A stretch of 20,176 bases of DNA from a virus (lineage: Duplodnaviria > Heunggongvirae > Uroviricota > Caudoviricetes): IMG/VR virus record IMGVR_UViG_3300015179_000039, one strand, 5' to 3'. The position numbers and the translations under genes are program-made. Under the pieces are notes generated by a model, which had not been told where the DNA came from, ran no database searches, and saw only the letters and a list, made by a program, of their open reading frames with translations. Of this stretch, positions 2,621-16,972 are shown piece after piece (the first letter of the stretch is position 1; the number at the start of each line of letters is the position of its first letter).

Positions 2621-2732
2621 AACTGAAGTTGCCCTGAAAATGAAATTTTTTTGCACAACCGCAGAACTTTTCCGCAGGGCATCAGTCTTAATTAGTGCCA
2701 CTGCTTTTCTTTGATGTCCCCATTTTGTGGAG

Positions 2733-2778
2733 CCCATCAACCCCGCCATTTCGGTTCAAGGTTGATGGGTTTTTTGTT
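2733..2778 (+). terminator. rho-independent terminator (host side of prophage junction)
   Basis: Perfect 10-bp inverted repeat cccatcaacc / ggttgatggg with a 17-nt loop, followed by ttttttgtt. The T-run is only on the plus strand, so it likely terminates ybjL-side transcription. Confidence 0.5.
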
Positions 2779-2855
2779 GCCTGAAATTTAAGCTGTTTAA
2801 AATCATGATGTTAGAAACACTGTTTTTTAACGATGGCGACAAAATGGCGGCAGCG

Positions 2856-3074
2856 TCAAAGAGAGAGCGCCACCTGTCCTGATTTCATTGGATGCGGCTG
2901 AACCGGATTTGACTCTTTTGGCGTTGCAATCGAACGAACAAAAGTTTCATGGGTTACAAAAGTATGGCTGCAGTTAATATTCTGGCACTGGTTGTAACGC
3001 TCTTTGGTCAATGAAGATACCTGAAAACTGCTGCGAGTATGGGCGGCACTTCCACACAGTGGGCAAATCATCAT
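2856..3074 (-). CDS. ogr: Ogr/Delta-family zinc-finger late-gene activator
   Basis: Contains C-x2-C-x22-C-x4-C (CPLCGSAAHTRSSFQVSSLTKERYNQCQNINC) and a C-terminal RPHP motif, as in P2 Ogr. The track ORF 2856-3107 begins at a GTG; I place the start at the internal ATG (MMICPLCG), giving about 73 aa. Start is uncertain by a few codons. Confidence 0.85.
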   Translation of the reverse strand: MMICPLCGSAAHTRSSFQVSSLTKERYNQCQNINCSHTFVTHETFVRSIATPKESNPVQPHPMKSGQVALSL

Positions 3075-3164
3075 TTTTCGAGTTCTCCCCATTTTTGCTA
3101 AATTCACAATAATGATACCGCATTATTCCATTTTGCAAACTTAAAAGTTCTCCATTGCGAAGAA

Positions 3165-4265
3165 TCATTCCATTTCGAAATCATCAATCCTCACTTCAAG
3201 CTCCAAACTGGTCGTAAAACCGTTATCCGGGCTGACGGTATGCGTCAGAGTCGTAATGGTCCATTCCGCATCATCTATCGGCTGTTTAAAACCACTGACC
3301 TTCACAGGCATTTCCGTGTAGAGATCTGCCCGCCCTTCTGCCAGTTGTAGCGAAAATGACGCAACGCCGCGTTGCAGGCGTTCCCACTGCATTTTCGCCG
3401 CTCGTTCGGCGTTGCTCCGGTTGGCATAAGTGCGATTAAGTACCAGCACGTTTTCATCCGTACCCACCAGGTAATCGCCCTGCTTCGCTTCTGGCTCTTT
3501 CTTCTGCTTCTTAGTTCTGCGCTTACGCTTCACCGTGGTGCTTTCTTTCTTCGCAGGTTCGCGGGTATGCAACCAGCTGGCAATTACGCCCGTGTAGGCT
3601 CCGCGATCTGCCAGGGTAAATCGGTGACTGTCGCCGTCCTTGCGTGTGATAGTGATCACTGGCAGAGGTTTACCAGTGGCGCTTTTGCCCTGCCCCTGCC
3701 GGATGAATAACAGATTGCCATTTTTCACCGACGCGATGGCACCGTACTGTCGCGCCAGCCGCATCAGAAAACTGCCGTCACTCTCATTAGTCTGGTCTAT
3801 ATGCTCCACGGGCTTATCCGACAGGTCTTTACCCAGTGCCATCTTCAGCTTGTGCCGCGCGGCTATTTCCTTCACCACTTCCCCGACGGTGGTCTTATGC
3901 CACGATTTTTCACGGCGGGTATTCAGCGTTTCCCGAAAATCAGCACTTCGCGCCCGGATAGTCAGGCGGTCCGGTGCGCCAGTGTGTTCAATCTCGTCCA
4001 CTGTGAATGCCCCTTTCGGGAAAAGCGGCTGCCCCTTCCAGCCCAGCGCCAGCGTAATAACCGCACCACGGCGCGGCAGCACGATTTTTCCGTCAGCGTC
4101 ATCCAGCTCCAGATCAAGCTGGTCCGCTTCAAAGCCCCGGTTATCCGTCAGCGTCAAACTCATCAGGCGGTTATCCAGCACAGTGGTGATATCCCTGCCC
4201 TCAATACTGATGCTGAATGCGGGAGTTTTGTTGCCTTTGTTAAGCAGTTCAGAGCTGAAATTCAC
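3165..4265 (-). CDS. D: tail protein D (late control gene D family)
   Basis: 366-aa ORF between U and ogr, the P2 gpD position. Internal MSLTLTDNRGFEADQLDLELDD motif resembles P2 D. Start abuts the U stop. Confidence 0.88.
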   Translation of the reverse strand: MNFSSELLNKGNKTPAFSISIEGRDITTVLDNRLMSLTLTDNRGFEADQLDLELDDADGKIVLPRRGAVITLALGWKGQPLFPKGAFTVDEIEHTGAPDRLTIRARSADFRETLNTRREKSWHKTTVGEVVKEIAARHKLKMALGKDLSDKPVEHIDQTNESDGSFLMRLARQYGAIASVKNGNLLFIRQGQGKSATGKPLPVITITRKDGDSHRFTLADRGAYTGVIASWLHTREPAKKESTTVKRKRRTKKQKKEPEAKQGDYLVGTDENVLVLNRTYANRSNAERAAKMQWERLQRGVASFSLQLAEGRADLYTEMPVKVSGFKQPIDDAEWTITTLTHTVSPDNGFTTSLELEVRIDDFEME

Positions 4266-4747
4266 GACAGAAGCCCTCCCACCGTTTTACTGATATCGCT
4301 TAAGGCAGACGTTGCCGTGTCCTGCAGATTATTCAGTTGCGCACGGAGATCACCGAACATATCGGACAGGGATTCATCCACTCGTTTGAGCGACAGGGTG
4401 AACTCAATCCGGCGCGGCATACCGTCGCGGAAAAACTCCGTTTTAGTCTGATTCAGTCCCTCAATCACATACATGCCGTAAATCGTGCCGCTGCCTTCAA
4501 TCAGGGGCCATGCTTTCCCCTGTTCTGCCATCTGCTCCAGTGCCAGCAACGACAGCCTGCCGCCTGTTATCTCCGGCATAAGAACACCGGAAAGCGTCAG
4601 CATGTCGTTTTCCGGTCCCAGAAACTGCGTGGACGGACGACGATTTACCCGACTGTTTGCCGCATGTCGCCAGCTGCGTTGATACTGCAGTTCCTGATAC
4701 GGAACGGTGCGCAGCATAAACACGTACAATCCCAGCACCATCATCAT
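4262..4747 (-). CDS. U: tail protein U
   Basis: 161-aa ORF (MMMVLGLYVFMLRTVPYQELQYQRSWRH...) resembling P2 gpU, sited between T and D. Stop overlaps the D start. Confidence 0.88.
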   Translation of the reverse strand: MMMVLGLYVFMLRTVPYQELQYQRSWRHAANSRVNRRPSTQFLGPENDMLTLSGVLMPEITGGRLSLLALEQMAEQGKAWPLIEGSGTIYGMYVIEGLNQTKTEFFRDGMPRRIEFTLSLKRVDESLSDMFGDLRAQLNNLQDTATSALSDISKTVGGLLS

Positions 4748-7700
4748 GCGTCGTATCCCCCCTGATCGCTGTAGTTACTCCTGGCTTTTGCCTTCAGCCT
4801 GCGTTCACGTTCATCAAGCTGGCGTGCCACCTCCCGCGCAATATCCTGCGCACTTTGTCCTGGCTGCGTCTGAATGATGATCTGCGTCGGTGCCTCAATC
4901 CGTTGAACGAGCGGCACAGTGGCTGCGCGACTCACAATTGCTTCTCCACCTTTCGCGGGAAGTGCCAAAGGGTGCAACGGTGGAAGCTCTGCTGGCGCGG
5001 CAGCAACGCCCATCATTCCGGCAACAACGGCAGCCAGTGCAGCTGTATTTCTCCGGCTGGTCACATTTGCCGGGCCGTTAACAATTTCCGGCCCGTTTTC
5101 ACCGACGATGCCAAACTGCCCGCGCGGGATATACCCGCCGCTGTCATACATCCCCGCAAAGCCATATCCCCATGATGGAAAACCACCCGATGGCATCATC
5201 ACTTTACCGTCTGCATTCACCGTCGCAGGTTGCTGACGCGTCACGCTTTCCGGCAGTTTTGCCTTTGCGGCCTCTTTACTGACAATGCCGAGCTTCTCCA
5301 GCAACCAGGAAACGCCGGATTTCAGGGAGTCCAGCGGATGCATGACCATATTCAGCCCTTCTGCCAGTGCCTCCCCGAATCGTCGCCCCATTGCCGCTGC
5401 GCTCTGCAGTTCGGCAGAGGTCGACTTAACGGGCGTCAGCAGATCAGTAAACCAGCCCCACAGCGCCTGCACTTTGTCGCCAATCCACTGGAACACGGGC
5501 TTAAGCGGTTCGAACGCTGCACTGATGGGACCTGCCGCCGCTTTGAATCCTTCCACCACGCCACCGAGAAATGCGGTGATGGGTTGCCAGTATTTCCAGA
5601 CAACCAGCGCCACGCCCGCCAGTGCAGTAACCACAAGACCTATCGGACTGAGCAGAGCACCTAACAGACCAGATATGGCATACAGGGTAACGCGCAGCAT
5701 CGCCAGTGGACCAGATGCCAGTACTCGCAGCACCGTGCCTGCGGCGGCCAGTCCACCGCGCAGTACCGCCAGAGGATTCATAAACATCACAGCAACAGCA
5801 CGTAAACCGGATAATCCAGACCGCAAAAGTGCAACCGGCGCACCTGCTACAGTTTTCAGGACATTTCCCGTCAGTGATGCCGTGCGGCGCAAAGACGACA
5901 ACGGCGCAGTAAGTAAACCTGCGGCGTTGCCCGATGAAGCAAGCCCGCGTCGCAGCAGTGCCAGTGGTGCGCCAGCCAGCCAGGACAACGCGCTGCTTGT
6001 TCGAGTTACTGCTGCCGTAACGGAAGGTAACGTTTTGATACCCAGCACAGAGAATCCCAGACGGATCACTGCCAGCGGCCCCAGCACTGCAGCCAGCGCC
6101 ACCGCTAAGGTGCCGAGGCCGACGGTAACCGCAGCCACAACAGCCGATGCTTTCATCAGTGTGCCTGTCAGTTCCGGGTTAGCTTCCACCCAGCGACGCA
6201 ACGCCCCCGTGACGCTTTTCACCGTGTACAGAATATCCATCAGCGGCTGGCGCAGCGTTTCGCCCAGGCTGCTGAAGGTGTTCTGCGCTCCGGTTTTGAC
6301 CAGCAACCACTGCGCAGAAAGTGAGTCTTTGTTGATGTCGGATTCTTTCTGCATGGAACCGAGCGCATCATTGCCCGCTGTCAGTTTTAGCTGGCGCTGC
6401 AGTTCCGGCAGGTTGTTTGCCAGTTTCGCCGCGTCATCACCAAACTCTTTACCAAACAACATGGTCATGGCAGACAGACGCTTGTCCTGCGGCAGTGCGT
6501 TCACCTTCTCCAGCACACGCTGGATAGTTCCCATCGCATCCTTCGTCATCTGCTTTTCAATCACTTCAGGATTGAGTTTCAGCAGATTCATCCCTTCAAA
6601 GAAACTCTTGCTTTGCATGGTGGCAATGGACAATTCACGCACCATCGCGTTTGCTGCACTGGCTGCAACCTCCGGCGCAGCGCCCAGTGTCAGAAAGGTA
6701 GAACCCAGTGCCGCCGCTTTACGATAATCCAGACGGTCAGCCACACCGCCCAGACGTTGCATCACATCAATGATGTCCGCCCCTTTCGACATGGCGTTAT
6801 CATCCAGATAGTTCAGCGCATCGCCGAGCTGTTCAATATTGCGGGTAGGTATTTTGTAGAGCTGGGCGATTTTCCCCAGACTTTCTGACAGTTCATCCGC
6901 TGGCAGCTCAAAGGCTGTTGCCGCCTTTGCTGCCGTACTGGCGAAGGCCAGCAGGTCACGTTTCTGGTCTTCCCAGCTGTCGTCAGGGTTTGCGACGTTC
7001 ATGCGCGCACCACCTTCAACCAGTGCAGCGAAGTCCACCGCACCGTTTTCCATCGGCAACTGTTCGCTGGCAGCCTTGATGGCATCCTGCATTTCATAAA
7101 AACGTGCAGTGCGGTTGCCATTATCGTCACGCAGACCATTGACCTGCTTTGCCACACCTTTCATGGCATCTTCCATGCTGGTATAGCTTTTTACTGCCGC
7201 CATCACTGGCGCACCCATTGCCAGCCCTGCAGCCGTGGTAGTGGCTCCGGCTCCTGCAATACGGTCGCGCACCTCCAGCGAACGGGCATAACTGGCACGC
7301 GCCGCATTCATCCTGCGCTGAGCTTCACCCAGTCGCTTCAGCCGCGCCTCCTGTTTCGACAATTCCTGGTTATAACGTGATGTTTCACGGGCTAAACGGG
7401 CAGTTGCTCCCGCATCATCTTTCGCAGAAATTCCCGCCCGGTACAGTTCTGCACGCACAAGCGCCGTTTGCTTCTGCAAATATTTTTGTTGTTCTTCCAG
7501 GCGTTGGACTGCCAGCGTTTGCCGACCTAAAGCCACAAGGTGCCGTTGTGATGGTTGTTCCATCGCCTCCAGCTCAGAGCTAAGCAAATTAGCCTTCTGT
7601 CTGGCATAGTTCAGCCTGTCGCCTAACTTCTTGTTATCGGCCTGCAGCTTGCGAAATTTTTCCAGGCTGTTACCCGCCTGATTGAGTTGCTTTAATGCGT

Positions 7701-7821
7701 CACGGGAGTTTCTGATTGCACCAGCCAGCTCTTTCGAACTGGCCTGTGCAGCACGGAATGGGCGGGTGAGTTTGTCAACCGCATTAAGAATGACCTGCAG
7801 GCGCAGGTTATTATCACTCAT
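4744..7821 (-). CDS. T: tail tape measure protein
   Basis: 1025-aa ORF with a coiled-coil-rich N-terminal half and Ala/Gly/Leu-rich degenerate repeats near residues 580-720, in the P2 gpT position after E/E'. Several long plus-strand ORFs in 4855-6888 are antisense artefacts of this GC-rich gene. Confidence 0.9.
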   Translation of the reverse strand: MSDNNLRLQVILNAVDKLTRPFRAAQASSKELAGAIRNSRDALKQLNQAGNSLEKFRKLQADNKKLGDRLNYARQKANLLSSELEAMEQPSQRHLVALGRQTLAVQRLEEQQKYLQKQTALVRAELYRAGISAKDDAGATARLARETSRYNQELSKQEARLKRLGEAQRRMNAARASYARSLEVRDRIAGAGATTTAAGLAMGAPVMAAVKSYTSMEDAMKGVAKQVNGLRDDNGNRTARFYEMQDAIKAASEQLPMENGAVDFAALVEGGARMNVANPDDSWEDQKRDLLAFASTAAKAATAFELPADELSESLGKIAQLYKIPTRNIEQLGDALNYLDDNAMSKGADIIDVMQRLGGVADRLDYRKAAALGSTFLTLGAAPEVAASAANAMVRELSIATMQSKSFFEGMNLLKLNPEVIEKQMTKDAMGTIQRVLEKVNALPQDKRLSAMTMLFGKEFGDDAAKLANNLPELQRQLKLTAGNDALGSMQKESDINKDSLSAQWLLVKTGAQNTFSSLGETLRQPLMDILYTVKSVTGALRRWVEANPELTGTLMKASAVVAAVTVGLGTLAVALAAVLGPLAVIRLGFSVLGIKTLPSVTAAVTRTSSALSWLAGAPLALLRRGLASSGNAAGLLTAPLSSLRRTASLTGNVLKTVAGAPVALLRSGLSGLRAVAVMFMNPLAVLRGGLAAAGTVLRVLASGPLAMLRVTLYAISGLLGALLSPIGLVVTALAGVALVVWKYWQPITAFLGGVVEGFKAAAGPISAAFEPLKPVFQWIGDKVQALWGWFTDLLTPVKSTSAELQSAAAMGRRFGEALAEGLNMVMHPLDSLKSGVSWLLEKLGIVSKEAAKAKLPESVTRQQPATVNADGKVMMPSGGFPSWGYGFAGMYDSGGYIPRGQFGIVGENGPEIVNGPANVTSRRNTAALAAVVAGMMGVAAAPAELPPLHPLALPAKGGEAIVSRAATVPLVQRIEAPTQIIIQTQPGQSAQDIAREVARQLDERERRLKAKARSNYSDQGGYDA

Positions 7822-8829: not shown

Positions 8830-10002
8830 TTACGCGCTAACCTGGCTGGCAAAATTCACCAGGTACTGATCGGTGATGCGCTGGCGCAGCATCAGGTTTT
8901 CAAGTGGCGGCACTGGCGTGTAGTCGTAGTCGATGGTGAGCTTCCCGGCTTTCAGCGTGTCTTTATCGTTCACCGACTCGTCCAGCCAGCAATCACCACC
9001 AATGAGATAGCCCTGACTGACCAAGCTGCGCATTTTGGCGCGGATACCTTCGATAATGTCGCGCGCCAGCGACGGGTTCAGCGGTTTGTCCACCGCCCAC
9101 ATGTGCGCTTCTGCCATCGTGTCCGTCAGCACCTGCGCCGTGCGGGTGTAGTTTTCGAAGGCAAAGAGCGGGTCATCACTCAGGCAGCGGGAACCCCAGA
9201 AGCGGAAACCGTCTTTACGCACAAGTGTGGTGACGTCGTTCTGGTTCAGCAGACCTGCATCGGTTGCCGGGTCCTGCAGATCCCAGAACACATCTGCAGA
9301 AATTCCGGTGACACCGTTCACGCCCACGTTGGACAGGCTTTTGTGCCATCCGGTCTGCTCGTCAATTTTGGCGCGCAGACCAAGCGCACGGGCGGTGGCA
9401 TATGCCGTTGCTTCGGCATTCAGCACCGTGTCCCAGCCAGTAAAGTCAGGCCAGATCAGCATTCCTTCGCGCTGGCTGAAGTTTTCACGGTAAGTGATCG
9501 CCTCCTGTACCGTCTTGCAGCCATACGCTGACAGGTAAGCAAATCCACGCAGTCTTTGCGCCACGCTCAGCAACTCAGTAGCTACCGCCTTGGTGTCGTG
9601 GCCTGGCACGCCGAGAATGCGCGGTTTAACGCCGAGCTGTGACTGGGCAGATAGCAGGGCTTTCATGCCTGTTTTTTTACCTTCAGCAGTCACAGCGCCG
9701 ATGATATTGGTCGTGGTTTCGTCTTCCGTTTCACCCTGCGGCACACGCACAACAACGGTCACGGGTTTTGCCTGGTCAGCGATGGCATCCAGCGAACGGG
9801 CCAGCGTGCCGGACTCACCCGCTTTACCGCTGGCAGTCAGCACATCAGTGATCAGCACGGGTTTATTAAGAGGAAACATTTTTGCATCGGCATCATCGCC
9901 CGTGCAGACCATACCCACGATGGCGGTGCTCACTGTGGTAATAGATCGGGTGCCTTCGTTGACTTCAACAACGCGCACCCCGTGGTGGTAATCCTGAGCC
10001 AT
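8830..10002 (-). CDS. FI: contractile tail sheath protein FI
   Basis: 390-aa ORF ([30 protein letters not shown]...) of sheath size, first gene of the FI-FII-E-T-U-D block. Confidence 0.92.
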
Positions 10003-10078
10003 AGTGGCGAACCTCCTGATTGGATTAGGCTTCGCCCTATGTTGAAGTGATTGAGCCTGACAAACAGCTAAGCGCAGT

Positions 10079-10096
10079 TGTGCCGTTATTCATACA
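10079..10096 (-). promoter_or_regulatory. candidate Ogr-binding element (TGT-N12-ACA) of late promoter PF
   Basis: tgt-gccgttattcat-aca lies about 85 bp upstream of the FI start codon in the FI/invertase intergenic region. Consistent with P2 late promoters carrying a TGT-N12-ACA dyad near -55. Coordinates approximate. Confidence 0.4.
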
Positions 10097-10144
10097 AAAT
10101 GACGGTATTTGTCTGCTTGCAGGGATAATCAACATAATGCTGAT

Positions 10145-10717
10145 TCAGGGGGATTCATTGCTCTTATTTGCCGGAAATTTTCTATAAATTGTGGAAACAC
10201 CTACATCAAAAATCAGTGCAATACGCTGTCTTGATTCTCCAGCCTCGAGTAAACGTCCAATCTGTGCCCACTGTTCGGTGGTCAACTTAGGACGGCGTCC
10301 ACCTACTCTGCCTTTGGCGCGAGCTGCAGCAAGCCCCGCCCTGGTACGTTCAACTATCAGTTCGCGCTCCATTTCAGCCAGGGCCCCCATGACATGAAAA
10401 AAGAAACGGCCCATTGGGGTACTGGTATCAATACTGTCAGTCAGGCTTCGGAAATTCACGCCGCGCTGGCGCAACTCTTCTATCAGCGTAACAAGATGCC
10501 GCATACTGCGCCCCAACCTGTCCAGCTTCCAGACAACCAGTGTGTCACCTGCCAATAGTGTCCTGAGCAGTTTTTTAAGCCCCGGTCTGTCGGACTTAGT
10601 GCCACTGATTTTGTCCTCAAAAATCCGCTCACATCCCGCGCAGTTCAGTGCATTACGTTGCAAATCGGTGTTCTGGTCATTTGTTGATACGCGTACATAG
10701 CCAATAAGCATGATCAT
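10145..10717 (-). CDS. serine recombinase, DNA invertase (Hin/Gin/Pin/Cin/Min family)
   Basis: 190-aa ORF with N-terminal resolvase catalytic motif (IGYVRVSTNDQ, catalytic Ser) and a C-terminal HTH (GESRQRIALIFDVGVSTIYRKF). Lies adjacent to an inverted-repeat-bounded tail-fibre cassette. Confidence 0.93.
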   Translation of the reverse strand: MIMLIGYVRVSTNDQNTDLQRNALNCAGCERIFEDKISGTKSDRPGLKKLLRTLLAGDTLVVWKLDRLGRSMRHLVTLIEELRQRGVNFRSLTDSIDTSTPMGRFFFHVMGALAEMERELIVERTRAGLAAARAKGRVGGRRPKLTTEQWAQIGRLLEAGESRQRIALIFDVGVSTIYRKFPANKSNESP

Positions 10718-10738
10718 CCCCCTGAATAAAAACCGGAG

Positions 10739-11113
10739 ATGATGCCAGTTAGCCGTTATCTCTGCATTTTCTTAAACGTTGGTTTGGGAGAAGCGGCAAA
10801 ACGAAATGTGGGAACAGGGGAAAATCAGATACCTGATATGTCATCATATGCATCAGGTTCAGGCTGGCGAAAAATGCCAGATGGTTCAATTGAACAGTGG
10901 GGACGAATTAGTTTTCCTGATGAACACGGGCCTGTATCCGCCAATGTTTCATTCCCGATTCCATTTACACAGACACCGGGCATTGTAATTGTGTGCGATG
11001 GTGGTTTCGGGGGCGGGAATATGTGGGGGGCGACCAACTGGAGCACTACCGGCTTCATAGCTCACTGCAATTATGGTCTTGAAGGTGGTGCGTTTTTCGC
11101 TAAGGGTTGGTAA
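10739..11113 (+). CDS. silent alternative tail-fibre C-terminal cassette (Sv'-like)
   Basis: The ORF has no credible own start. It shares the LGLGE junction with H at the crossover site and continues with an unrelated Gly-rich C-terminus (...[14 protein letters not shown]...). Only codons after about 10792 would be used after inversion. Confidence 0.7.
10767..10792. repeat. recombination site (hix/gix-like), invertase-proximal
   Basis: ttttcttaaacgttggtttgggagaa; its reverse complement TTCTCCCAAACCAACGTTTAAGAAAA resembles Hin hixL (TTCTTGAAAACCAAGGTTTTTGATAA, recalled from memory). Inverted partner of the site at 12577-12602. Coordinates within 2 nt. Confidence 0.6.
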
Positions 11114-11556
11114 TGATGAAATATCTGTACGTAAACAACCTGGCATATCCTTACGAACTTCAGTCTCTTTATGTTGAAAAAGGTGAATGGCCGGAAGAAA
11201 AAGGTGTTGATATAGACGAAGTAATTTTCAGGGAATATTTCTATGATACACCACCAGAAGGAAAATACAGATGTGTCGGAGAGGATGGACTGCCTGCATG
11301 GGCAGATATTCCTCCACCAACACGTGAAGAACAAATTGCATCAGCCGAAACTAAAAAGCAGCAATTGATTAATCAGGCCAACGAATACATCAACAGTAAA
11401 CAATGGCCAGGTAAAGCATCAATTGGTCGTCTGAAAGGTGAGGAACTGGCGCAATATAATTTGTGGCTGGATTATCTGGACGCACTGGAACTGGTCGATA
11501 CTTCCGGTGCGCCAGATATTGAATGGCCTACGCCTCCGGCAGTTCAGGCCAGATGA
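11107..11556 (+). CDS. tail fibre assembly protein (alternate, partner of the silent cassette)
   Basis: 149-aa ORF with the C-terminal tail-fibre-assembly signature (...[25 protein letters not shown]), shared with the convergent tfa at 11528-12130. Start overlaps the end of the Sv' cassette. Confidence 0.85.
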
Positions 11557-12130
11557 CATCCGGCGCGGTGCTGGTATCTGTTGCCGTCACCGCGTCAATG
11601 TAATCCAGCACAGCGTTAAGCCGGGTTGTTTCTGCCTGCGTCAGTTTACGTCCGGCCTGCAATTTCAGTTGAATCAGACTGATGGAAGCCATTGCAGTAT
11701 CAATCAGCGACTGGCGCTGTGCTTCTGCTGCATCTACTGCGGCGCTATGCTGTGCCTCGGTATCCGTCACCCATTTCTCACCATCCCATTTATCGTATGG
11801 CGTTAATGGGGCGATAGTGGTTGTATTTTCAGGGTAATCACCCGGAGCTGTGATTTCTTTTGATTCTCCTGTTTCAGTGCTATAGACCGTTTCACCGCGA
11901 TGGTCTGGCACATATTCCCATGAGTTAAGATCTGCAGAACGGCAAATTGCATAACCAGCTTTATATGAGCTAGGAGCATCTAAACAGGAACTTGCCGGGA
12001 TACCGACGCCGACAGCGATATATTCATTTGATGTGGAAATATATTCCCGTGTTTCGCCATCATAGTTATAGACGGTAATATTCCCCGCCTTCGTGGCAAT
12101 AAGCTCGATATTTAATACGGCTTTATTCAT
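11528..12130 (-). CDS. G: tail fibre assembly protein (currently expressed orientation)
   Basis: 200-aa ORF immediately downstream of H, with C-terminal ...[25 protein letters not shown] typical of gpG/Tfa chaperones. Confidence 0.85.
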   Translation of the reverse strand: MNKAVLNIELIATKAGNITVYNYDGETREYISTSNEYIAVGVGIPASSCLDAPSSYKAGYAICRSADLNSWEYVPDHRGETVYSTETGESKEITAPGDYPENTTTIAPLTPYDKWDGEKWVTDTEAQHSAAVDAAEAQRQSLIDTAMASISLIQLKLQAGRKLTQAETTRLNAVLDYIDAVTATDTSTAPDVIWPELPEA

Positions 12131-13638
12131 CAGGCTGCCCTCACGATATAGTTAAATGCAATATTCCGTGGGCGAGTATCGGCAGGAACGACATACATTT
12201 CACCAATTGCCCGCTCATTAGAGTTGTTAAGCAATAGGCTTGAGCCATTACTGTCATGACCCGTAATTAAGATATCATTGGACAAAATAAGTGAGCCCGT
12301 ACCTGCAGGAATACCATAAATTCCCATATCAAATTTAATATAACCAACACGCGCGCTCTGTGCAGACATAACGCTGCGACCAGTATCTACTGAACGACCA
12401 TCATCCCAGCCACGAATAAATTCACCGCGTAAATCAGGCAATTTATTGGTCGGGTAAGCCCTTGCCAGTTCCGGGTATTCTTCAGCAGAAAAAGCCGCAC
12501 CATTGCATTTCAGCCAGCCTGTTGGCGGAGTGGCTGAAGGCCACGGAACAGGCACCCCAACCGGTAATGCAGAGCCTTCTCCTAAACCAAGGTATGTGAG
12601 AAGACCAGCTACATCCTTTCCACTCAAATTAGTCAGCGTATTGTCCAGCGGTTGTTTACCTGCCAGTGCATTAAGCATTGTCGTGGCAAAGTTCGGGTCA
12701 TTCCCCAGCGCTGCCGCCAGTTCGTTCAGTGTATCCAGTGCCGCAGGTGCAGAACCCACCATTGCCGCAATTGCCGATTTCACAAAAGCCGTGGTGGCAA
12801 TCTGTGTATTGTTGACCGACTGTGCCGCAGTAGGTGCGGTTGGCGTTCCGGTGAGTGCCGGACTCGACAGCGGCGCTTTCAGTGCCAGCGCATTGTTAAT
12901 GGTGGTACTGAATTTCGGATCATTGTTAATGGCTGCGGCTATTTCTTTCAGCGTGTCCAGCGTGGCTGGCGCACCATTAATAAGAGCCGTCAGAGCCGCC
13001 TGAACAAACGCGGTGGTCGCAATCTGCGTAGTATTATTCCCCGCCGCTGGCGTTGGCGCTTTGGGGGTTCCGGTAAACGTCGGACTTTCTTTGAGTGCAT
13101 ACTGTGAATGCGGGTCCGGTGCGGCAAGATGTTTTGCCATCTGATCATCCGCGTACACCTTCAGCTCCAGTGCCTTGTCATCCACATACTTGCGGGTTGC
13201 CAGCACTACGGCAGGGTCGATTTTCAGGGTGATATTGTCCGTACTGCTGGTAATCAGCACCATGCGCACGGTCTGAGTGCGCCCGCTACCTTCAGCCAGT
13301 TGCGGCTTATAGCTTTCCGGGCAGTTGCCCACGGCAATCAATGCCCCGGACTCATCAAACAAGCCCACTTCACGTATCCACCAACCGCCCTCGTTTTCAG
13401 GGATCACCTGTTCGGCAATAATCTGGCTGCTGTTCTGCGGGTCGATATAGAGCATATTCAGCGCAGCCCGGCGTTTCTCATTTACCAGTGCAGTCTGCTT
13501 TGAGTCTGGCGTTGGCAATACTCCGCCGCCATCGCCGACCGCCATATGGGTAATTTTTAGCGGCACACCGAGCGCGGCGGCGCTGGCAAGTTTCGCCGCG
13601 CCAATATCCGTCAGCAGGGTATAAAATTTTGTGCTCAT
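12130..13638 (-). CDS. H: tail fibre protein H
   Basis: 502-aa ORF with a P2 H-like N-terminus (MSTKF...MAVGDGGG), two tandem modules of about 72 aa, and a variable C-terminal domain after the LGLGE crossover motif (residues about 351-354). Confidence 0.9.
   Translation of the reverse strand: MSTKFYTLLTDIGAAKLASAAALGVPLKITHMAVGDGGGVLPTPDSKQTALVNEKRRAALNMLYIDPQNSSQIIAEQVIPENEGGWWIREVGLFDESGALIAVGNCPESYKPQLAEGSGRTQTVRMVLITSSTDNITLKIDPAVVLATRKYVDDKALELKVYADDQMAKHLAAPDPHSQYALKESPTFTGTPKAPTPAAGNNTTQIATTAFVQAALTALINGAPATLDTLKEIAAAINNDPKFSTTINNALALKAPLSSPALTGTPTAPTAAQSVNNTQIATTAFVKSAIAAMVGSAPAALDTLNELAAALGNDPNFATTMLNALAGKQPLDNTLTNLSGKDVAGLLTYLGLGEGSALPVGVPVPWPSATPPTGWLKCNGAAFSAEEYPELARAYPTNKLPDLRGEFIRGWDDGRSVDTGRSVMSAQSARVGYIKFDMGIYGIPAGTGSLILSNDILITGHDSNGSSLLLNNSNERAIGEMYVVPADTRPRNIAFNYIVRAA
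12577..12602. repeat. recombination site (hix/gix-like) inside H
   Basis: ttctcctaaaccaaggtatgtgagaa; the first 14 positions match the reverse complement of the 10767-10792 site at 13 of 14. It sits on the codons for YLGLGE of H. Confidence 0.6.
12649..13086 (-). repeat. tandem duplication of a module of about 216 bp (72 aa) within H
   Basis: Protein repeats GTPKAPTPAAGNNTTQIATTAFVQAALTALINGAPATLDTLKEIAAAINNDPKFSTTINNALALKAP and GTPTAPTAAQSVNNTQIATTAFVKSAIAAMVGSAPAALDTLNELAAALGNDPNFATTMLNALAGKQP, with the corresponding direct DNA repeats. Confidence 0.8.
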
Positions 13639-16062: not shown

Positions 16063-16108
16063 AGATATATGATGACAGATGAAAATTTGTTTATAACTTC
16101 TTGCAAAT

Positions 16109-16126
16109 TGTGGTATCGATGGTACA
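16109..16126 (-). promoter_or_regulatory. candidate Ogr-binding element (TGT-N12-ACA) of late promoter PV
   Basis: tgt-ggtatcgatggt-aca centred about 55 bp upstream of the V start codon, closer to the ATG than expected for a -55 site. Overlaps the likely promoter of the divergent AT-rich gene. Confidence 0.35.
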
Positions 16127-16165
16127 AATTGACAAAAGGATAAAAAACAACCAATAGGTGGATAA

Positions 16166-16972
16166 ATGAGTGTTATGAATCCAATAAGTTCTAATATATT
16201 TAATGCTGAATTTTTAAACACCCCGGCAGCGGCACTTGCCGCATGGATTTCCATTATTGGAGCTGTTATAACTTTGGTGACGATAGTTATAAGAGCACTA
16301 TTCAAATATAGAAAATCTCATGATGTAATTTTGAAAAAATCAGGAATACCTGCGTTTATATTAAATTTCTTTCTTATAAAAATATCATTAAAAAGGCTGC
16401 CTACTATCACATGGGCTGAAAAATCATTCACGGTTCTATTTTCGCTTCTTTTTTTGTGTGCAATTTATCTTTTTGGTCCAGTTTTCATCCAAGCCATTAG
16501 AACCCCACCAAATAGCACATTGCTTTATTGGATAAAGTCCGGTGAATCATTTTATATGTCAAAAAAAATGGCGACTGCAGCTACAATATTAACCACTCCT
16601 GATTGGGAAATATCAAAGGATGATTGCGAAGAGTCATCCTCTGCCAGTACAGAGAAGTACAAATCATTAACTATCGAACATAAAGAAATTCTTTGTAAAC
16701 TACTAACCACTGATGAAGGGAATGCTTACATTGATGAAGAAGTCAAGAATTTCGTTAAAGACAAATTTTTTATCTATTCCTTTGCCCCAACAACTATATT
16801 TATTCTATTATGGATTTCTTTGGGTTTTATACTGACCATTCACTATTCTAAAAAAGTTAGAAAATATATTCTAACTGAACAAAAAAATGCAATTCATTGG
16901 GCATATGGTGAATTCAAGACAGAAGGAATCTATTCAATATATCAAGAGTTAGAACATAAGACTCACCATTAA
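16166..16972 (+). CDS. AT-rich moron gene: hypothetical multi-pass membrane protein
   Basis: 268-aa ORF with ATG start and an AGGTGG Shine-Dalgarno 6 nt upstream. GC content is visibly far below the flanking tail genes. Predicted TM helices near residues 20-45, 88-110 and 205-230 (possibly one more at 60-75), plus a charged loop of about 95 aa. No motif I recognise. Confidence 0.7.
   Translation: MSVMNPISSNIFNAEFLNTPAAALAAWISIIGAVITLVTIVIRALFKYRKSHDVILKKSGIPAFILNFFLIKISLKRLPTITWAEKSFTVLFSLLFLCAIYLFGPVFIQAIRTPPNSTLLYWIKSGESFYMSKKMATAATILTTPDWEISKDDCEESSSASTEKYKSLTIEHKEILCKLLTTDEGNAYIDEEVKNFVKDKFFIYSFAPTTIFILLWISLGFILTIHYSKKVRKYILTEQKNAIHWAYGEFKTEGIYSIYQELEHKTHH

What the first reader, a model, noticed from the sequence alone, without database searches (positions are those of the whole stretch)
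10145..12602. Tail-fibre host-range inversion switch in place of the P2 Z/fun locus
Seen in sequence: a serine-recombinase invertase gene lies next to a segment of about 1.8 kb bounded by inverted 26-bp hix/gix-like sites. One site sits on the LGLGE codons of fibre gene H; the other sits on the LGLGE codons of a promoterless alternative fibre 3' cassette on the opposite strand. Each fibre 3' end has its own assembly-chaperone gene, and the two are convergent. Established knowledge: this is the architecture of the Mu G, P1 C, e14 P and p15B Min inversion systems, whereas canonical P2 has non-invertible H-G followed by Z/fun. Inference: inversion would swap about 148 C-terminal residues of H for about 106 alternative residues and so switch receptor specificity.
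Basis: partly seen in the sequence, partly recalled or inferred. Interest (0 to 1): 0.6.

Follow-up and report, generated by a model that had tools for sequence, protein, structure and literature searches.

The report
Pin-type tail-fibre inversion switch, P2-like prophage
This is a real but already well-known kind of phage device: a small DNA-flipping enzyme that inverts a 1.8-kb segment so that an E. coli P2-like prophage can make one of two alternative tail-fibre tips and so change which bacteria it can attach to.

Summary
The window is E. coli chromosome (grxA-ybjM-ybjL) plus the tail module of a P2-like prophage. Between fibre genes H-G and sheath gene FI, where phage P2 carries fun(Z), lies a serine invertase (85% identical to e14 PinE, 74% to Mu Gin, catalytic Ser9 present). 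Beside it is a 1,810-bp segment bounded by two inverted 26-bp sites that fit the gix/pix consensus. The left site is 25/26 identical to the pinE-adjacent e14 pix site. The segment holds two convergent fibre chaperone genes and two alternative fibre 3' ends. Flipping it in silico gives an in-frame 460-aa H in place of the 502-aa one.

Inversion occurs in nature. Of complete E. coli genomes with this cassette pair, 16 have the window's orientation and 11 the opposite. In one assembly (O25b:H4) the chromosome and a 29.5-kb extrachromosomal record carry the two orientations, with reciprocal junctions inside the sites.

Inversion of this particular copy was not tested, because no reads were available.

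The parts
10145..10711 (-). Pin/Gin-family serine DNA invertase, 188 aa. An upstream in-frame ATG at 10717 would add Met-Ile.
   Evidence: Pfam Resolvase 1.2e-52 plus HTH_7. 85% identical to e14 PinE, 74% to Mu Gin, 98% to the invertase of E. coli MS10860; Ser9 invariant. PDB Gin 3uj3/4m6f at 1e-92. K46, K47, R50, Q150, R153 and L154 present.
10627..10690 (-). Homologue of the Fis-bound recombinational enhancer, inside the invertase 5' coding region. Two 15-mers have G at -7 and C at +7: GTATCAACAAATGAC (10676-10690) and GCGCGGGATGTGAGC (10627-10641). ATTTG and TAATG lie between them.
   Evidence: The DNA alignment with e14 pinE and Mu gin shows the first 15-mer identical in all three and the second nearly so. 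Coordinates. The first 15-mer is centred about 97 bp from the left site, against about 100 bp from hixL in Hin (PMC3798978). The choice of the 15-mers is my own reading. Fis binding was not tested.
10767..10792 (.). Left 26-bp crossover site, next to the invertase. Outer half 10767-10778, core TT/AA 10779-10780, inner half 10781-10792.
   Evidence: 25/26 identical to the pinE-adjacent e14 pix site TTCTCCCAAACCAACGTTTATGAAAA. Breakpoint of the inversion relative to MS10860.
10780..12589 (.). Invertible segment, 1,810 bp between core centres.
   Evidence: blastn of the window against MS10860: flanks collinear, 10776-12593 reversed. 16 complete E. coli genomes have this orientation and 11 the other.
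10739..11113 (+). Silent alternative fibre 3' cassette. The part that would be fused to H after inversion is 10781-11113, 110 aa from the crossover.
   Evidence: Pfam Gp53-like_C. It matches the C-terminal ends of tail-fibre PHROGs. The in-silico flip gives an in-frame 460-aa H. The fused gene is found at 99.2% identity as an annotated 'phage tail protein' in MS10860.
11113..11556 (+). Chaperone (tail fibre assembly protein) paired with the silent cassette, 147 aa.
   Evidence: Pfam Caudo_TAP 4.5e-33. Its C-terminal half is 59% identical to e14 TfaP.
11528..12130 (-). Chaperone paired with the fibre end now expressed (P2 G position), 200 aa.
   Evidence: Pfam Caudo_TAP 3.4e-33. 92% identical to e14 TfaE.
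12130..13638 (-). Fibre gene H, 502 aa. The constant part is 12591-13638 (residues 1-350). The exchangeable part is 12130-12588 (152 aa).
   Evidence: Pfam Phage_tail_fib plus Collar. The C-terminal part is 56% identical to e14 StfE, and nearly identical over the first 80 aa. PHROG tail collar fibre 3.5e-61.
12577..12602 (.). Right 26-bp crossover site inside H, on codons L-T-Y-L-G-L-G-E. Inner half 12577-12588, core 12589-12590, outer half 12591-12602.
   Evidence: Second breakpoint of the inversion relative to MS10860.
10079..10096 (-). Context: a TGT-N12-ACA motif of the Ogr-activated late-promoter type, upstream of FI. It shows that the invertase lies directly between the fibre operon and the F operon.
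   Evidence: Sequence. The motif assignment rests on established knowledge of P2 late promoters and was not tested. The DNA aligns poorly with the PF region of P2 itself.

Best explanation
This is a two-state, Pin/Gin-type site-specific inversion switch for the tail fibre of a P2-like (Peduoviridae) prophage of E. coli.

Proposed mechanism:
1. Invertase dimers bind the two inverted 26-bp sites.
2. With a Fis-bound enhancer in the 5' end of the invertase gene, they form an invertasome.
3. Both sites are cut at the central AA/TT dinucleotide, one half rotates by 180 degrees, and the ends are religated.
4. The 1,810-bp segment is thereby inverted.

The N-terminal 350 codons of H and the late promoter stay fixed. 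Inversion therefore replaces the last 152 residues of H (a StfE-like collar-type tip) and its TfaE-like chaperone. The replacement is a 110-residue gp53-like tip with its own chaperone. A lysate from a mixed lysogen population would thus carry two kinds of virion with different receptor specificity.

Shown here:
- the anatomy, the homology and the reading-frame compatibility;
- that both orientations occur in close relatives, with breakpoints in the sites, including within one assembly.

Inferred:
- Fis dependence;
- activity of this particular copy;
- that the two tips recognise different receptors.
For: - Invertase: domains and 85% / 74% identity to PinE / Gin, with Ser9 and the catalytic core invariant.
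- Sites: they fit a consensus taken from Mu and e14. Two hits against 0.00 expected. The left site is 25/26 identical to e14 pix. The core dinucleotides are identical and the sites are inverted.
- Enhancer: the region and the Fis-contact residues are conserved.
- Frame: the in-silico flip gives an in-frame 460-aa H.
- Flipped junction in nature: it is present at 99.2% over 600 bp in E. coli MS10860, where it is annotated as one gene.
- Breakpoints: flanks are collinear and the segment reversed, with breakpoints overlapping both sites.
- Counts: 16 complete genomes carry this cassette pair in the window's orientation and 11 in the flipped one.
- One assembly with both states: in GCF_001874485.1 the chromosome and a 29.5-kb extrachromosomal record hold opposite orientations. 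They encode identical proteins (same WP accessions). The four junctions are reciprocal, with exchange inside TTGGTTTGGGAGAAG. The invertase there is 186/188 identical to the window's.
- Segment content: it is homologous to the e14 P segment. TfaE 92%, StfE 56%, TfaP 59% over the C-terminal half.
- Literature: inversion in P2-like prophages of EPEC verified by reads and PCR (PMC4272514); the Fels-2 fin inversion (PMC7953296); invertases with inverted neighbouring genes in the P2 Z/fun hotspot (bioRxiv 10.1101/2024.10.15.618418).
Against: - No reads or population data exist for this copy, so its own activity is unproven.
- The invertase has Leu53 where PinE and the two closest E. coli homologues have Ser and Gin has Gln. 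The effect of this is unknown.
- The outer half of the right site (GGTATGTGAGAA) departs from the GGTTT consensus. Relatives that demonstrably invert share this feature.
- Neither receptor specificity is known.
- By my count the two Fis-like 15-mers are 49 bp apart centre to centre. I recall 48 bp for Hin but could not verify that figure.
Confidence: 0.9

Rival explanations
1. Fossil switch. The architecture is that of an inversion system, but this copy no longer inverts, through a crippled invertase or a degenerate site. The prophage would then be fixed in the StfE-like fibre state.
For: The invertase carries Leu53, which differs from all four homologues compared. The outer half of the right site is the least consensus-like half-site. 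No read data are available.
Against: All reading frames are intact: the invertase, both chaperones and both cassettes. A relative, L004, does have an internal stop in one chaperone. The catalytic and Fis-contact residues are conserved. A site with the same GGTATG half-site is recombined in the O25b:H4 assembly. From established knowledge of the Din family, E. coli Pin-family invertases complement each other in trans, so a host e14, Rac or Qin invertase could flip the segment anyway (see also PMC12529663).
Confidence: 0.07
2. The orientation differences among genomes come from horizontal cassette exchange or general homologous recombination between fibre modules, not from site-specific inversion.
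For: Fibre tips are mosaic. The last roughly 90 codons of H (12125-12400) occur in only 16 of 5,426 genomes, and they are unaligned in otherwise close relatives.
Against: Both breakpoints fall within the same 18 bp of the two 26-bp sites. The four junctions in one assembly are exactly reciprocal and the flanks encode identical proteins (same WP accessions). The shared homology at the sites is only about 15 bp, too short for efficient RecA recombination (established knowledge). A dedicated invertase sits next to the segment.
Confidence: 0.02
3. The switch mainly serves the lysogen rather than the virion. Inversion would create a fibre-derived protein that acts in the host cell, for example by blocking adsorption of other phages, as reported for the StfE2 chimera made by PinQ inversion of the e14 P segment.
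For: Kirigo et al. 2025 (PMC12529663) report such a role for the homologous e14 segment. The window's exchangeable H end and its chaperone are StfE/TfaE-like.
Against: Here the cassettes are fused to a complete H gene inside an apparently complete P2-type late tail operon. An Ogr homologue and a late-promoter motif are present. By established knowledge of P2, that operon is silent in lysogens. The simple virion host-range role therefore explains everything seen.
Confidence: 0.04

Closest known systems
e14 Pin / P segment (pinE, stfE-tfaE, stfP-tfaP) of E. coli K-12
   Same: - Invertase 85% identical.
- The pin-proximal site is 25/26 identical and the other 21/26.
- Same layout: two convergent chaperone genes overlapping by 29 bp, with two fibre 3' ends.
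- TfaE 92% and StfE 56% identical.
- Similar segment size: 1,810 bp against 1,827 bp between site centres.
   Different: - e14 is a defective lambdoid element with a truncated fibre gene. Here the segment is attached to a full-length P2-type H in an apparently complete tail module.
- The second cassette is a gp53-like tip with only marginal similarity to StfP (E = 0.016).
Invertible tail-fibre segments of P2-like prophages: Fels-2 Fin of Salmonella LT2/LT7, the P2-like prophages of EPEC E2348/69, and invertases in the P2 Z/fun hotspot
   Same: - Same phage family, same position and same logic.
- Inversion was shown by reads and PCR in EPEC (PMC4272514).
- It was inferred from an LT2/LT7 comparison for Fels-2 (PMC7953296).
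- It was noted as frequent in the Z/fun hotspot (bioRxiv 10.1101/2024.10.15.618418).
- Deposited phage genomes have the same annotated layout: KP12, 500465-1, 'P2' of O157:H43 T22 and Cartapus.
   Different: - Only the particular cassette alleles differ.
- One EPEC prophage has three sites and four variants. The window has only two sites.
Mu Gin / G segment and P1 Cin / C segment
   Same: - Invertase 74% identical to Gin.
- 26-bp sites of the same consensus.
- The enhancer lies within the 5' end of the invertase gene.
- A fixed fibre N-terminus with alternative C-termini, each with its own chaperone.
   Different: - Different phage families.
- The G segment is about 3 kb, and its crossover lies nearer the fibre N-terminus (Sc of about 170 codons, against 350 constant codons here).
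- P1 was not examined here.
Salmonella Hin / H segment
   Same: Same recombinase family and the same Fis/enhancer mechanism. The Fis-contact residues described for Hin are conserved.
   Different: - Hin lies inside its own invertible segment.
- It switches a promoter for flagellin genes, not a coding-sequence fusion.
Canonical phage P2 (H, G, fun(Z), FI)
   Same: Same gene order: V W J I H G ... FI FII E T U D ogr. P2 H carries a relic gix-like sequence, TTATCGAATATCTCGGTTTACAGGAA, on E-Y-L-G-L-Q-E, 23/26 identical to Mu gix.
   Different: P2 has no invertase, no second cassette and no second site. It has fun(Z) at this position.

Membership tests
Fis/enhancer-dependent serine DNA invertase systems (Hin/Gin/Cin/Pin, 'Din' family) | A small serine recombinase, about 190 aa, with an N-terminal catalytic domain carrying the nucleophilic Ser9/10 and a C-terminal helix-turn-helix. 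| tested here: met
   Resolvase plus HTH_7. Ser9 and the catalytic core are invariant against PinE and Gin. The Gin structures match at 1e-92 over residues 1-184.
Fis/enhancer-dependent serine DNA invertase systems (Hin/Gin/Cin/Pin, 'Din' family) | Two 26-bp imperfectly palindromic crossover sites, in inverted orientation, with identical central dinucleotides. | tested here: met
   10767-10792 and 12577-12602, both with core AA when read in the same sense. One mismatch or fewer to a consensus taken from Mu gix and e14 pix, 2 hits against 0.00 expected.
Fis/enhancer-dependent serine DNA invertase systems (Hin/Gin/Cin/Pin, 'Din' family) | A recombinational enhancer in cis with two Fis sites, and invertase residues that contact Fis and the enhancer. 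| tested here: inconclusive
   The homologous DNA is conserved with e14 and Mu. K46, K47, R50, Q150, R153 and L154 are present. Fis binding and enhancer dependence cannot be tested with these tools, and the 15-mers are my own assignment.
Fis/enhancer-dependent serine DNA invertase systems (Hin/Gin/Cin/Pin, 'Din' family) | The segment actually inverts: both orientations are found, with exchange at the sites. | tested here: met
   Met for close relatives. 16 genomes against 11. Breakpoints in the sites. Both orientations in one assembly, with reciprocal junctions and a 99% identical invertase. Not testable for this very copy, because there are no reads.
Phage tail-fibre host-range switches (Mu G, P1 C, e14 P type) | A constant fibre 5' part outside the segment; two alternative in-frame 3' parts inside it, each followed by its own chaperone gene. 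| tested here: met
Phage tail-fibre host-range switches (Mu G, P1 C, e14 P type) | The two orientations give virions with different host range. | not testable with these tools
   This requires adsorption or plating assays with orientation-locked phage.
P2-like phages (Peduoviridae) | P2-type tail and baseplate gene order (V W J I H G / FI FII E T U D ogr) with matching protein families. | tested here: met
   Pfam GPD, GpU, Phage_base_V and GPL. PGAP annotation of a near-identical locus. Compared with the P2 record.
Multi-site shufflons (R64 Rci; p15B Min six-site system) | More than two crossover sites giving multiple permutations. For R64, also a tyrosine recombinase. | tested here: not met
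   Only two sites are in or near the segment, even at 3 mismatches. The recombinase is a serine recombinase.

The most novel reading that the evidence does not exclude
The most novel reading not excluded is that inversion matters in the lysogen rather than in the virion. One orientation would yield a StfE-type product that blocks adsorption of competing phages, as recently claimed for e14 StfE2. Alternatively, the prophage invertase would cross-act with the host's other Pin-family segments, coupling several switches. A lesser novelty is that the rare H tip allele (12125-12400, in 16 of 5,426 complete E. coli genomes and in no deposited phage) specifies an uncharacterised receptor.
Probability: 0.05. 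Interest if true: 0.4.

Novelty: already known. Interest (0 to 1): 0.12.

Why it matters
It matters little as a discovery. The mechanism has been textbook since Mu Gin, P1 Cin and e14 Pin. Its presence in P2-like prophages, at the Z/fun position, is already documented experimentally and in surveys.

There are practical consequences:
- A prophage of this kind releases a mixture of two virion types.
- Assemblies can report either orientation, or even split the prophage into two records, as in the O25b:H4 assembly.
- Automatic annotation labels the parts only as 'recombinase family protein' and 'phage tail protein', so the switch is easy to miss when host range is predicted from genome sequence.

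Tried and rejected
- The repeat finder with default settings did not report the site pair, because the longest exact seeds are 7 nt. I located the sites by reading the sequence, then confirmed them with an independent consensus pattern.
- The promoter/terminator scan of 9900-12700 gave counts close to the shuffle expectation (6 against 4.7; 3 against 2.6). It says nothing about whether the silent cassette is promoterless or where the invertase promoter lies.
- Aligning the FI upstream region with the PF region of P2 gave poor DNA similarity, so only the TGT-N12-ACA motif could be noted.
- PADLOC gave no hit for the invertase or for the DUF6216 ORF. PHROGs gave none for the latter.
- Rousset et al. 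2022 (PMC9122126) was searched for invertase and fibre terms, with no matches.
- I considered a multi-site shufflon and rejected it, because there are only two sites.
- I considered that the flipped junctions might reflect cassette swapping rather than inversion. The reciprocal junctions rule this out.
- Several fetched loci (L003-L006, L008) never appeared in the Python sandbox. Those comparisons were done with the alignment and pattern tools instead.
- The large protein-database, structure-prediction and metagenome tools were not used. The answer did not need them.

Full report
**What the window is.** The left 2.6 kb is E. coli chromosome (grxA, ybjM, ybjL). It is 100% identical to strain 2017.20.01CC and is present in 5,419 of 5,426 complete genomes. 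From about 2.85 kb onward the - strand carries the right arm of a P2-like prophage:
- ogr, D (Phage_GPD), U (GpU), a 1,025-aa tape measure, E, tube FII and sheath FI;
- then the region of the finding;
- then H, I, J, W, V, and after a cargo gene the tail-completion, lysis and head-completion genes.

In phage P2 itself the order is H, G, terminator, fun(Z), PF, FI. The finding therefore occupies the fun(Z) position.

**Checking the observation.** Every element described is present.
- The invertase (10145-10711, -) has a Resolvase catalytic domain (1.2e-52) and the HTH_7 DNA-binding domain.
- H (12130-13638, -) has the P2-type N-terminal fibre domain and a Collar domain.
- Two Caudo_TAP chaperone genes (11528-12130 on -, 11113-11556 on +) converge and overlap by 29 bp.
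- A 124-codon ORF (10739-11113, +) matches the C-terminal ends of fibre families only.
- The two 26-bp sites are at 10767-10792 and 12577-12602. Read in the same sense they are TTCTCCCAAACCAACGTTTAAGAAAA and TTCTCCTAAACCAAGGTATGTGAGAA. They are 20/26 identical, share the core AA, and are inverted relative to each other.

To avoid circularity I took the consensus from the authentic Mu gix and e14 pix sites found in their own records. With one mismatch allowed it hits only these two positions in the window, with none in 100 shuffles. At three mismatches nothing else appears in or near the segment, so this is a two-site, two-state system.

The inner half-sites encode G-L-G-E in both cassettes. 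The crossover dinucleotide lies in positions 2-3 of the preceding codon (CTT in H, GTT in the silent cassette), so the exchange is in frame. The in-silico flip gives a 460-aa H ending at a proper stop.

**What it is.**
- The invertase is 85% identical to e14 PinE and 74% to Mu Gin. Ser9 and the surrounding YVRVSTNDQ, and the rest of the catalytic core, are invariant. The Gin crystal-structure sequences match at 1e-92.
- The left site is 25/26 identical to the pinE-adjacent pix site.
- The chaperone in the P2 G position is 92% identical to TfaE. The exchangeable end of H is StfE-like (56%, almost identical over the first 80 residues). The other chaperone shares its C-terminal half with TfaP.

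The segment is therefore a relative of the e14 P segment, joined to a full-length P2-type fibre gene.

The stretch from the left site through the first 200 bp of the invertase gene aligns with e14 and Mu. GTATCAACAAATGAC (10676-10690) is identical in all three, and GCGCGGGATGTGAGC (10627-10641) is nearly so. Each has G and C at the +/-7 positions typical of Fis sites. ATTTG and TAATG lie between them, matching the AT-rich patches ATTTA and TAATG described for the Hin enhancer (PMC3798978). The first site is centred about 97 bp from the crossover site, against about 100 bp in Hin. The residues that paper singles out as specific to Fis-dependent invertases (Hin 47, 48, 51, 151, 154, 155) correspond here to K46, K47, R50, Q150, R153 and L154. 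This is homology evidence for the enhancer, not a test of Fis binding.

**Does it invert?** Reads were not available, so I used public genomes as a substitute.
- The predicted flipped H junction exists at 99.2% identity over 600 bp in E. coli MS10860, annotated as a single 'phage tail protein'.
- A blastn of the window against that locus shows collinear flanks (97-99% identity) and a reversed interior. The alignments overlap by 18 bp exactly at the two sites.
- I searched the whole segment with 400-bp flanks, in both configurations. The same cassette pair occurs in the window's orientation in 16 complete genomes and in the flipped orientation in 11.
- The most telling case is assembly GCF_001874485.1 (O25b:H4). 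The chromosome holds one orientation and a 29.5-kb extrachromosomal record of the same prophage holds the other. The invertase, both chaperones and gpI have the same WP accessions in both records.
- The four junctions in that assembly show a clean reciprocal exchange within TTGGTTTGGGAGAAG. The invertase there is 186/188 identical to the window's.

It concerns a relative, not this copy.

**Mechanism.** The supported model is the standard invertasome mechanism. Invertase dimers bind the two sites. They synapse with the Fis-bound enhancer, make double-strand cuts at the central dinucleotide, rotate subunits by 180 degrees, and religate. The late operon promoter and the first 350 codons of H are fixed.
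- The present orientation expresses a 502-aa H with a StfE-like collar tip and a TfaE-like chaperone.
- The other orientation would express a 460-aa H with a gp53-like tip and its own 147-aa chaperone.

Different receptor specificity is inferred from the Mu, P1 and carotovoricin precedents (cited in PMC4272514) and was not tested. Because Pin-family invertases complement one another (established knowledge; see also PMC12529663), host cryptic-prophage invertases might also flip the segment.

**Rivals.**
- A fossil switch cannot be excluded for this copy. The invertase has Leu53 where the relatives have Ser or Gln, and the outer half of the right site is atypical. However, all frames are intact, and the same atypical half-site recombines in the O25b:H4 assembly.
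- Cassette swapping by general recombination is contradicted by the reciprocal, site-precise junctions.
- A lysogen-level role, as claimed for e14 StfE2 (PMC12529663), is possible. It is unnecessary here, since the cassettes feed a complete late-expressed fibre gene.

**Comparison with what is known, and novelty.** This belongs to the Hin/Gin/Cin/Pin family and, within it, to the Pin-like group. The same arrangement in P2-like prophages is already on record:
- Goldberg et al. 2014 detected inversion by sequencing and PCR in two P2-like prophages of EPEC E2348/69. One is a simple two-variant system like this one (PMC4272514).
- Zaworski et al. 2021 describe the Fels-2 fibre inversion next to fin (PMC7953296).
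- Seventy-six deposited phage genomes match the region. Several are annotated as fibre / two assembly proteins / DNA invertase.

**Verdict.** The system is already known, so interest is low.

Noticed in passing
window 16065-16962 (ORF 16166-16972, +): An AT-rich (32% GC against 53% for the window) 268-aa ORF with predicted membrane segments lies between baseplate gene V and the tail-completion genes, on the opposite strand. It matches only Pfam DUF6216. The insert is absent from the MS10860 prophage and is replaced by a 610-aa P-loop NTPase in strain 2017.20.01CC. This looks like a further variable cargo site of P2-like prophages. There are no PADLOC or PHROG hits.
   Followed up: partly
L003 2358-2383 (phage P2 NC_001895, gene H, codons about 375-383): Canonical, non-invertible P2 H carries TTATCGAATATCTCGGTTTACAGGAA on E-Y-L-G-L-Q-E. 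This is 23/26 identical to Mu gix and sits at the boundary equivalent to the window's crossover site. It is an apparent relic of an inversion site.
   Followed up: partly
window 12125-12400 (last ~90 codons of H): The distal tip of the currently expressed fibre is a rare allele. It is found at 80% coverage or more in only 16 of 5,426 complete E. coli genomes (up to 99.3% identity, always next to a tfaE-like gene) and in none of 50,697 phage records. It is unaligned in otherwise close relatives, so fibre tips are mosaic below the level of the invertible cassette.
   Followed up: partly
L007 / L008 (NZ_CP015085.1 4682684-4688341 and NZ_CP015088.1 18496-24153): One E. coli O25b:H4 assembly contains the same P2-like prophage twice, integrated and as a 29.5-kb linear 'extrachromosomal' record, differing by the orientation of the fibre segment. 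The extra record has a frameshifted sheath gene. It may be excised phage DNA or an assembler's alternative path caused by the inversion.
   Followed up: partly
window 2621-3165: The prophage end abuts ybjL. An ogr/Delta-like zinc-finger gene (2856-3074, -) is the last phage gene, so the attachment junction should lie in 2621-2855. It was not mapped.
   Followed up: no
window 4744-7821: The tape measure protein is 1,025 aa, against 815 aa in P2 (T is 2,448 bp in NC_001895). This predicts a longer tail or an inserted domain.
   Followed up: no
window 10553-10555 (invertase codon 53): The invertase has Leu53 where e14 PinE and the two closest E. coli homologues have Ser and Gin has Gln. The position is next to helix B, which contacts the enhancer in Hin. 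The effect is unknown.
   Followed up: no
window 11466-11483 / 11592-11609: An 18-nt inverted repeat (83%) inside the segment reflects the shared C-terminal motif of the two convergent chaperones (WLDYLDA... / VLDYIDA...). It is not a third recombination site.
   Followed up: yes
L004 11173-11616 (E. coli 2017.20.01CC): In the closest genome by flanking sequence, the chaperone of the silent cassette is annotated as a pseudogene with an internal stop. This suggests that silent cassettes can decay in some lineages.
   Followed up: no
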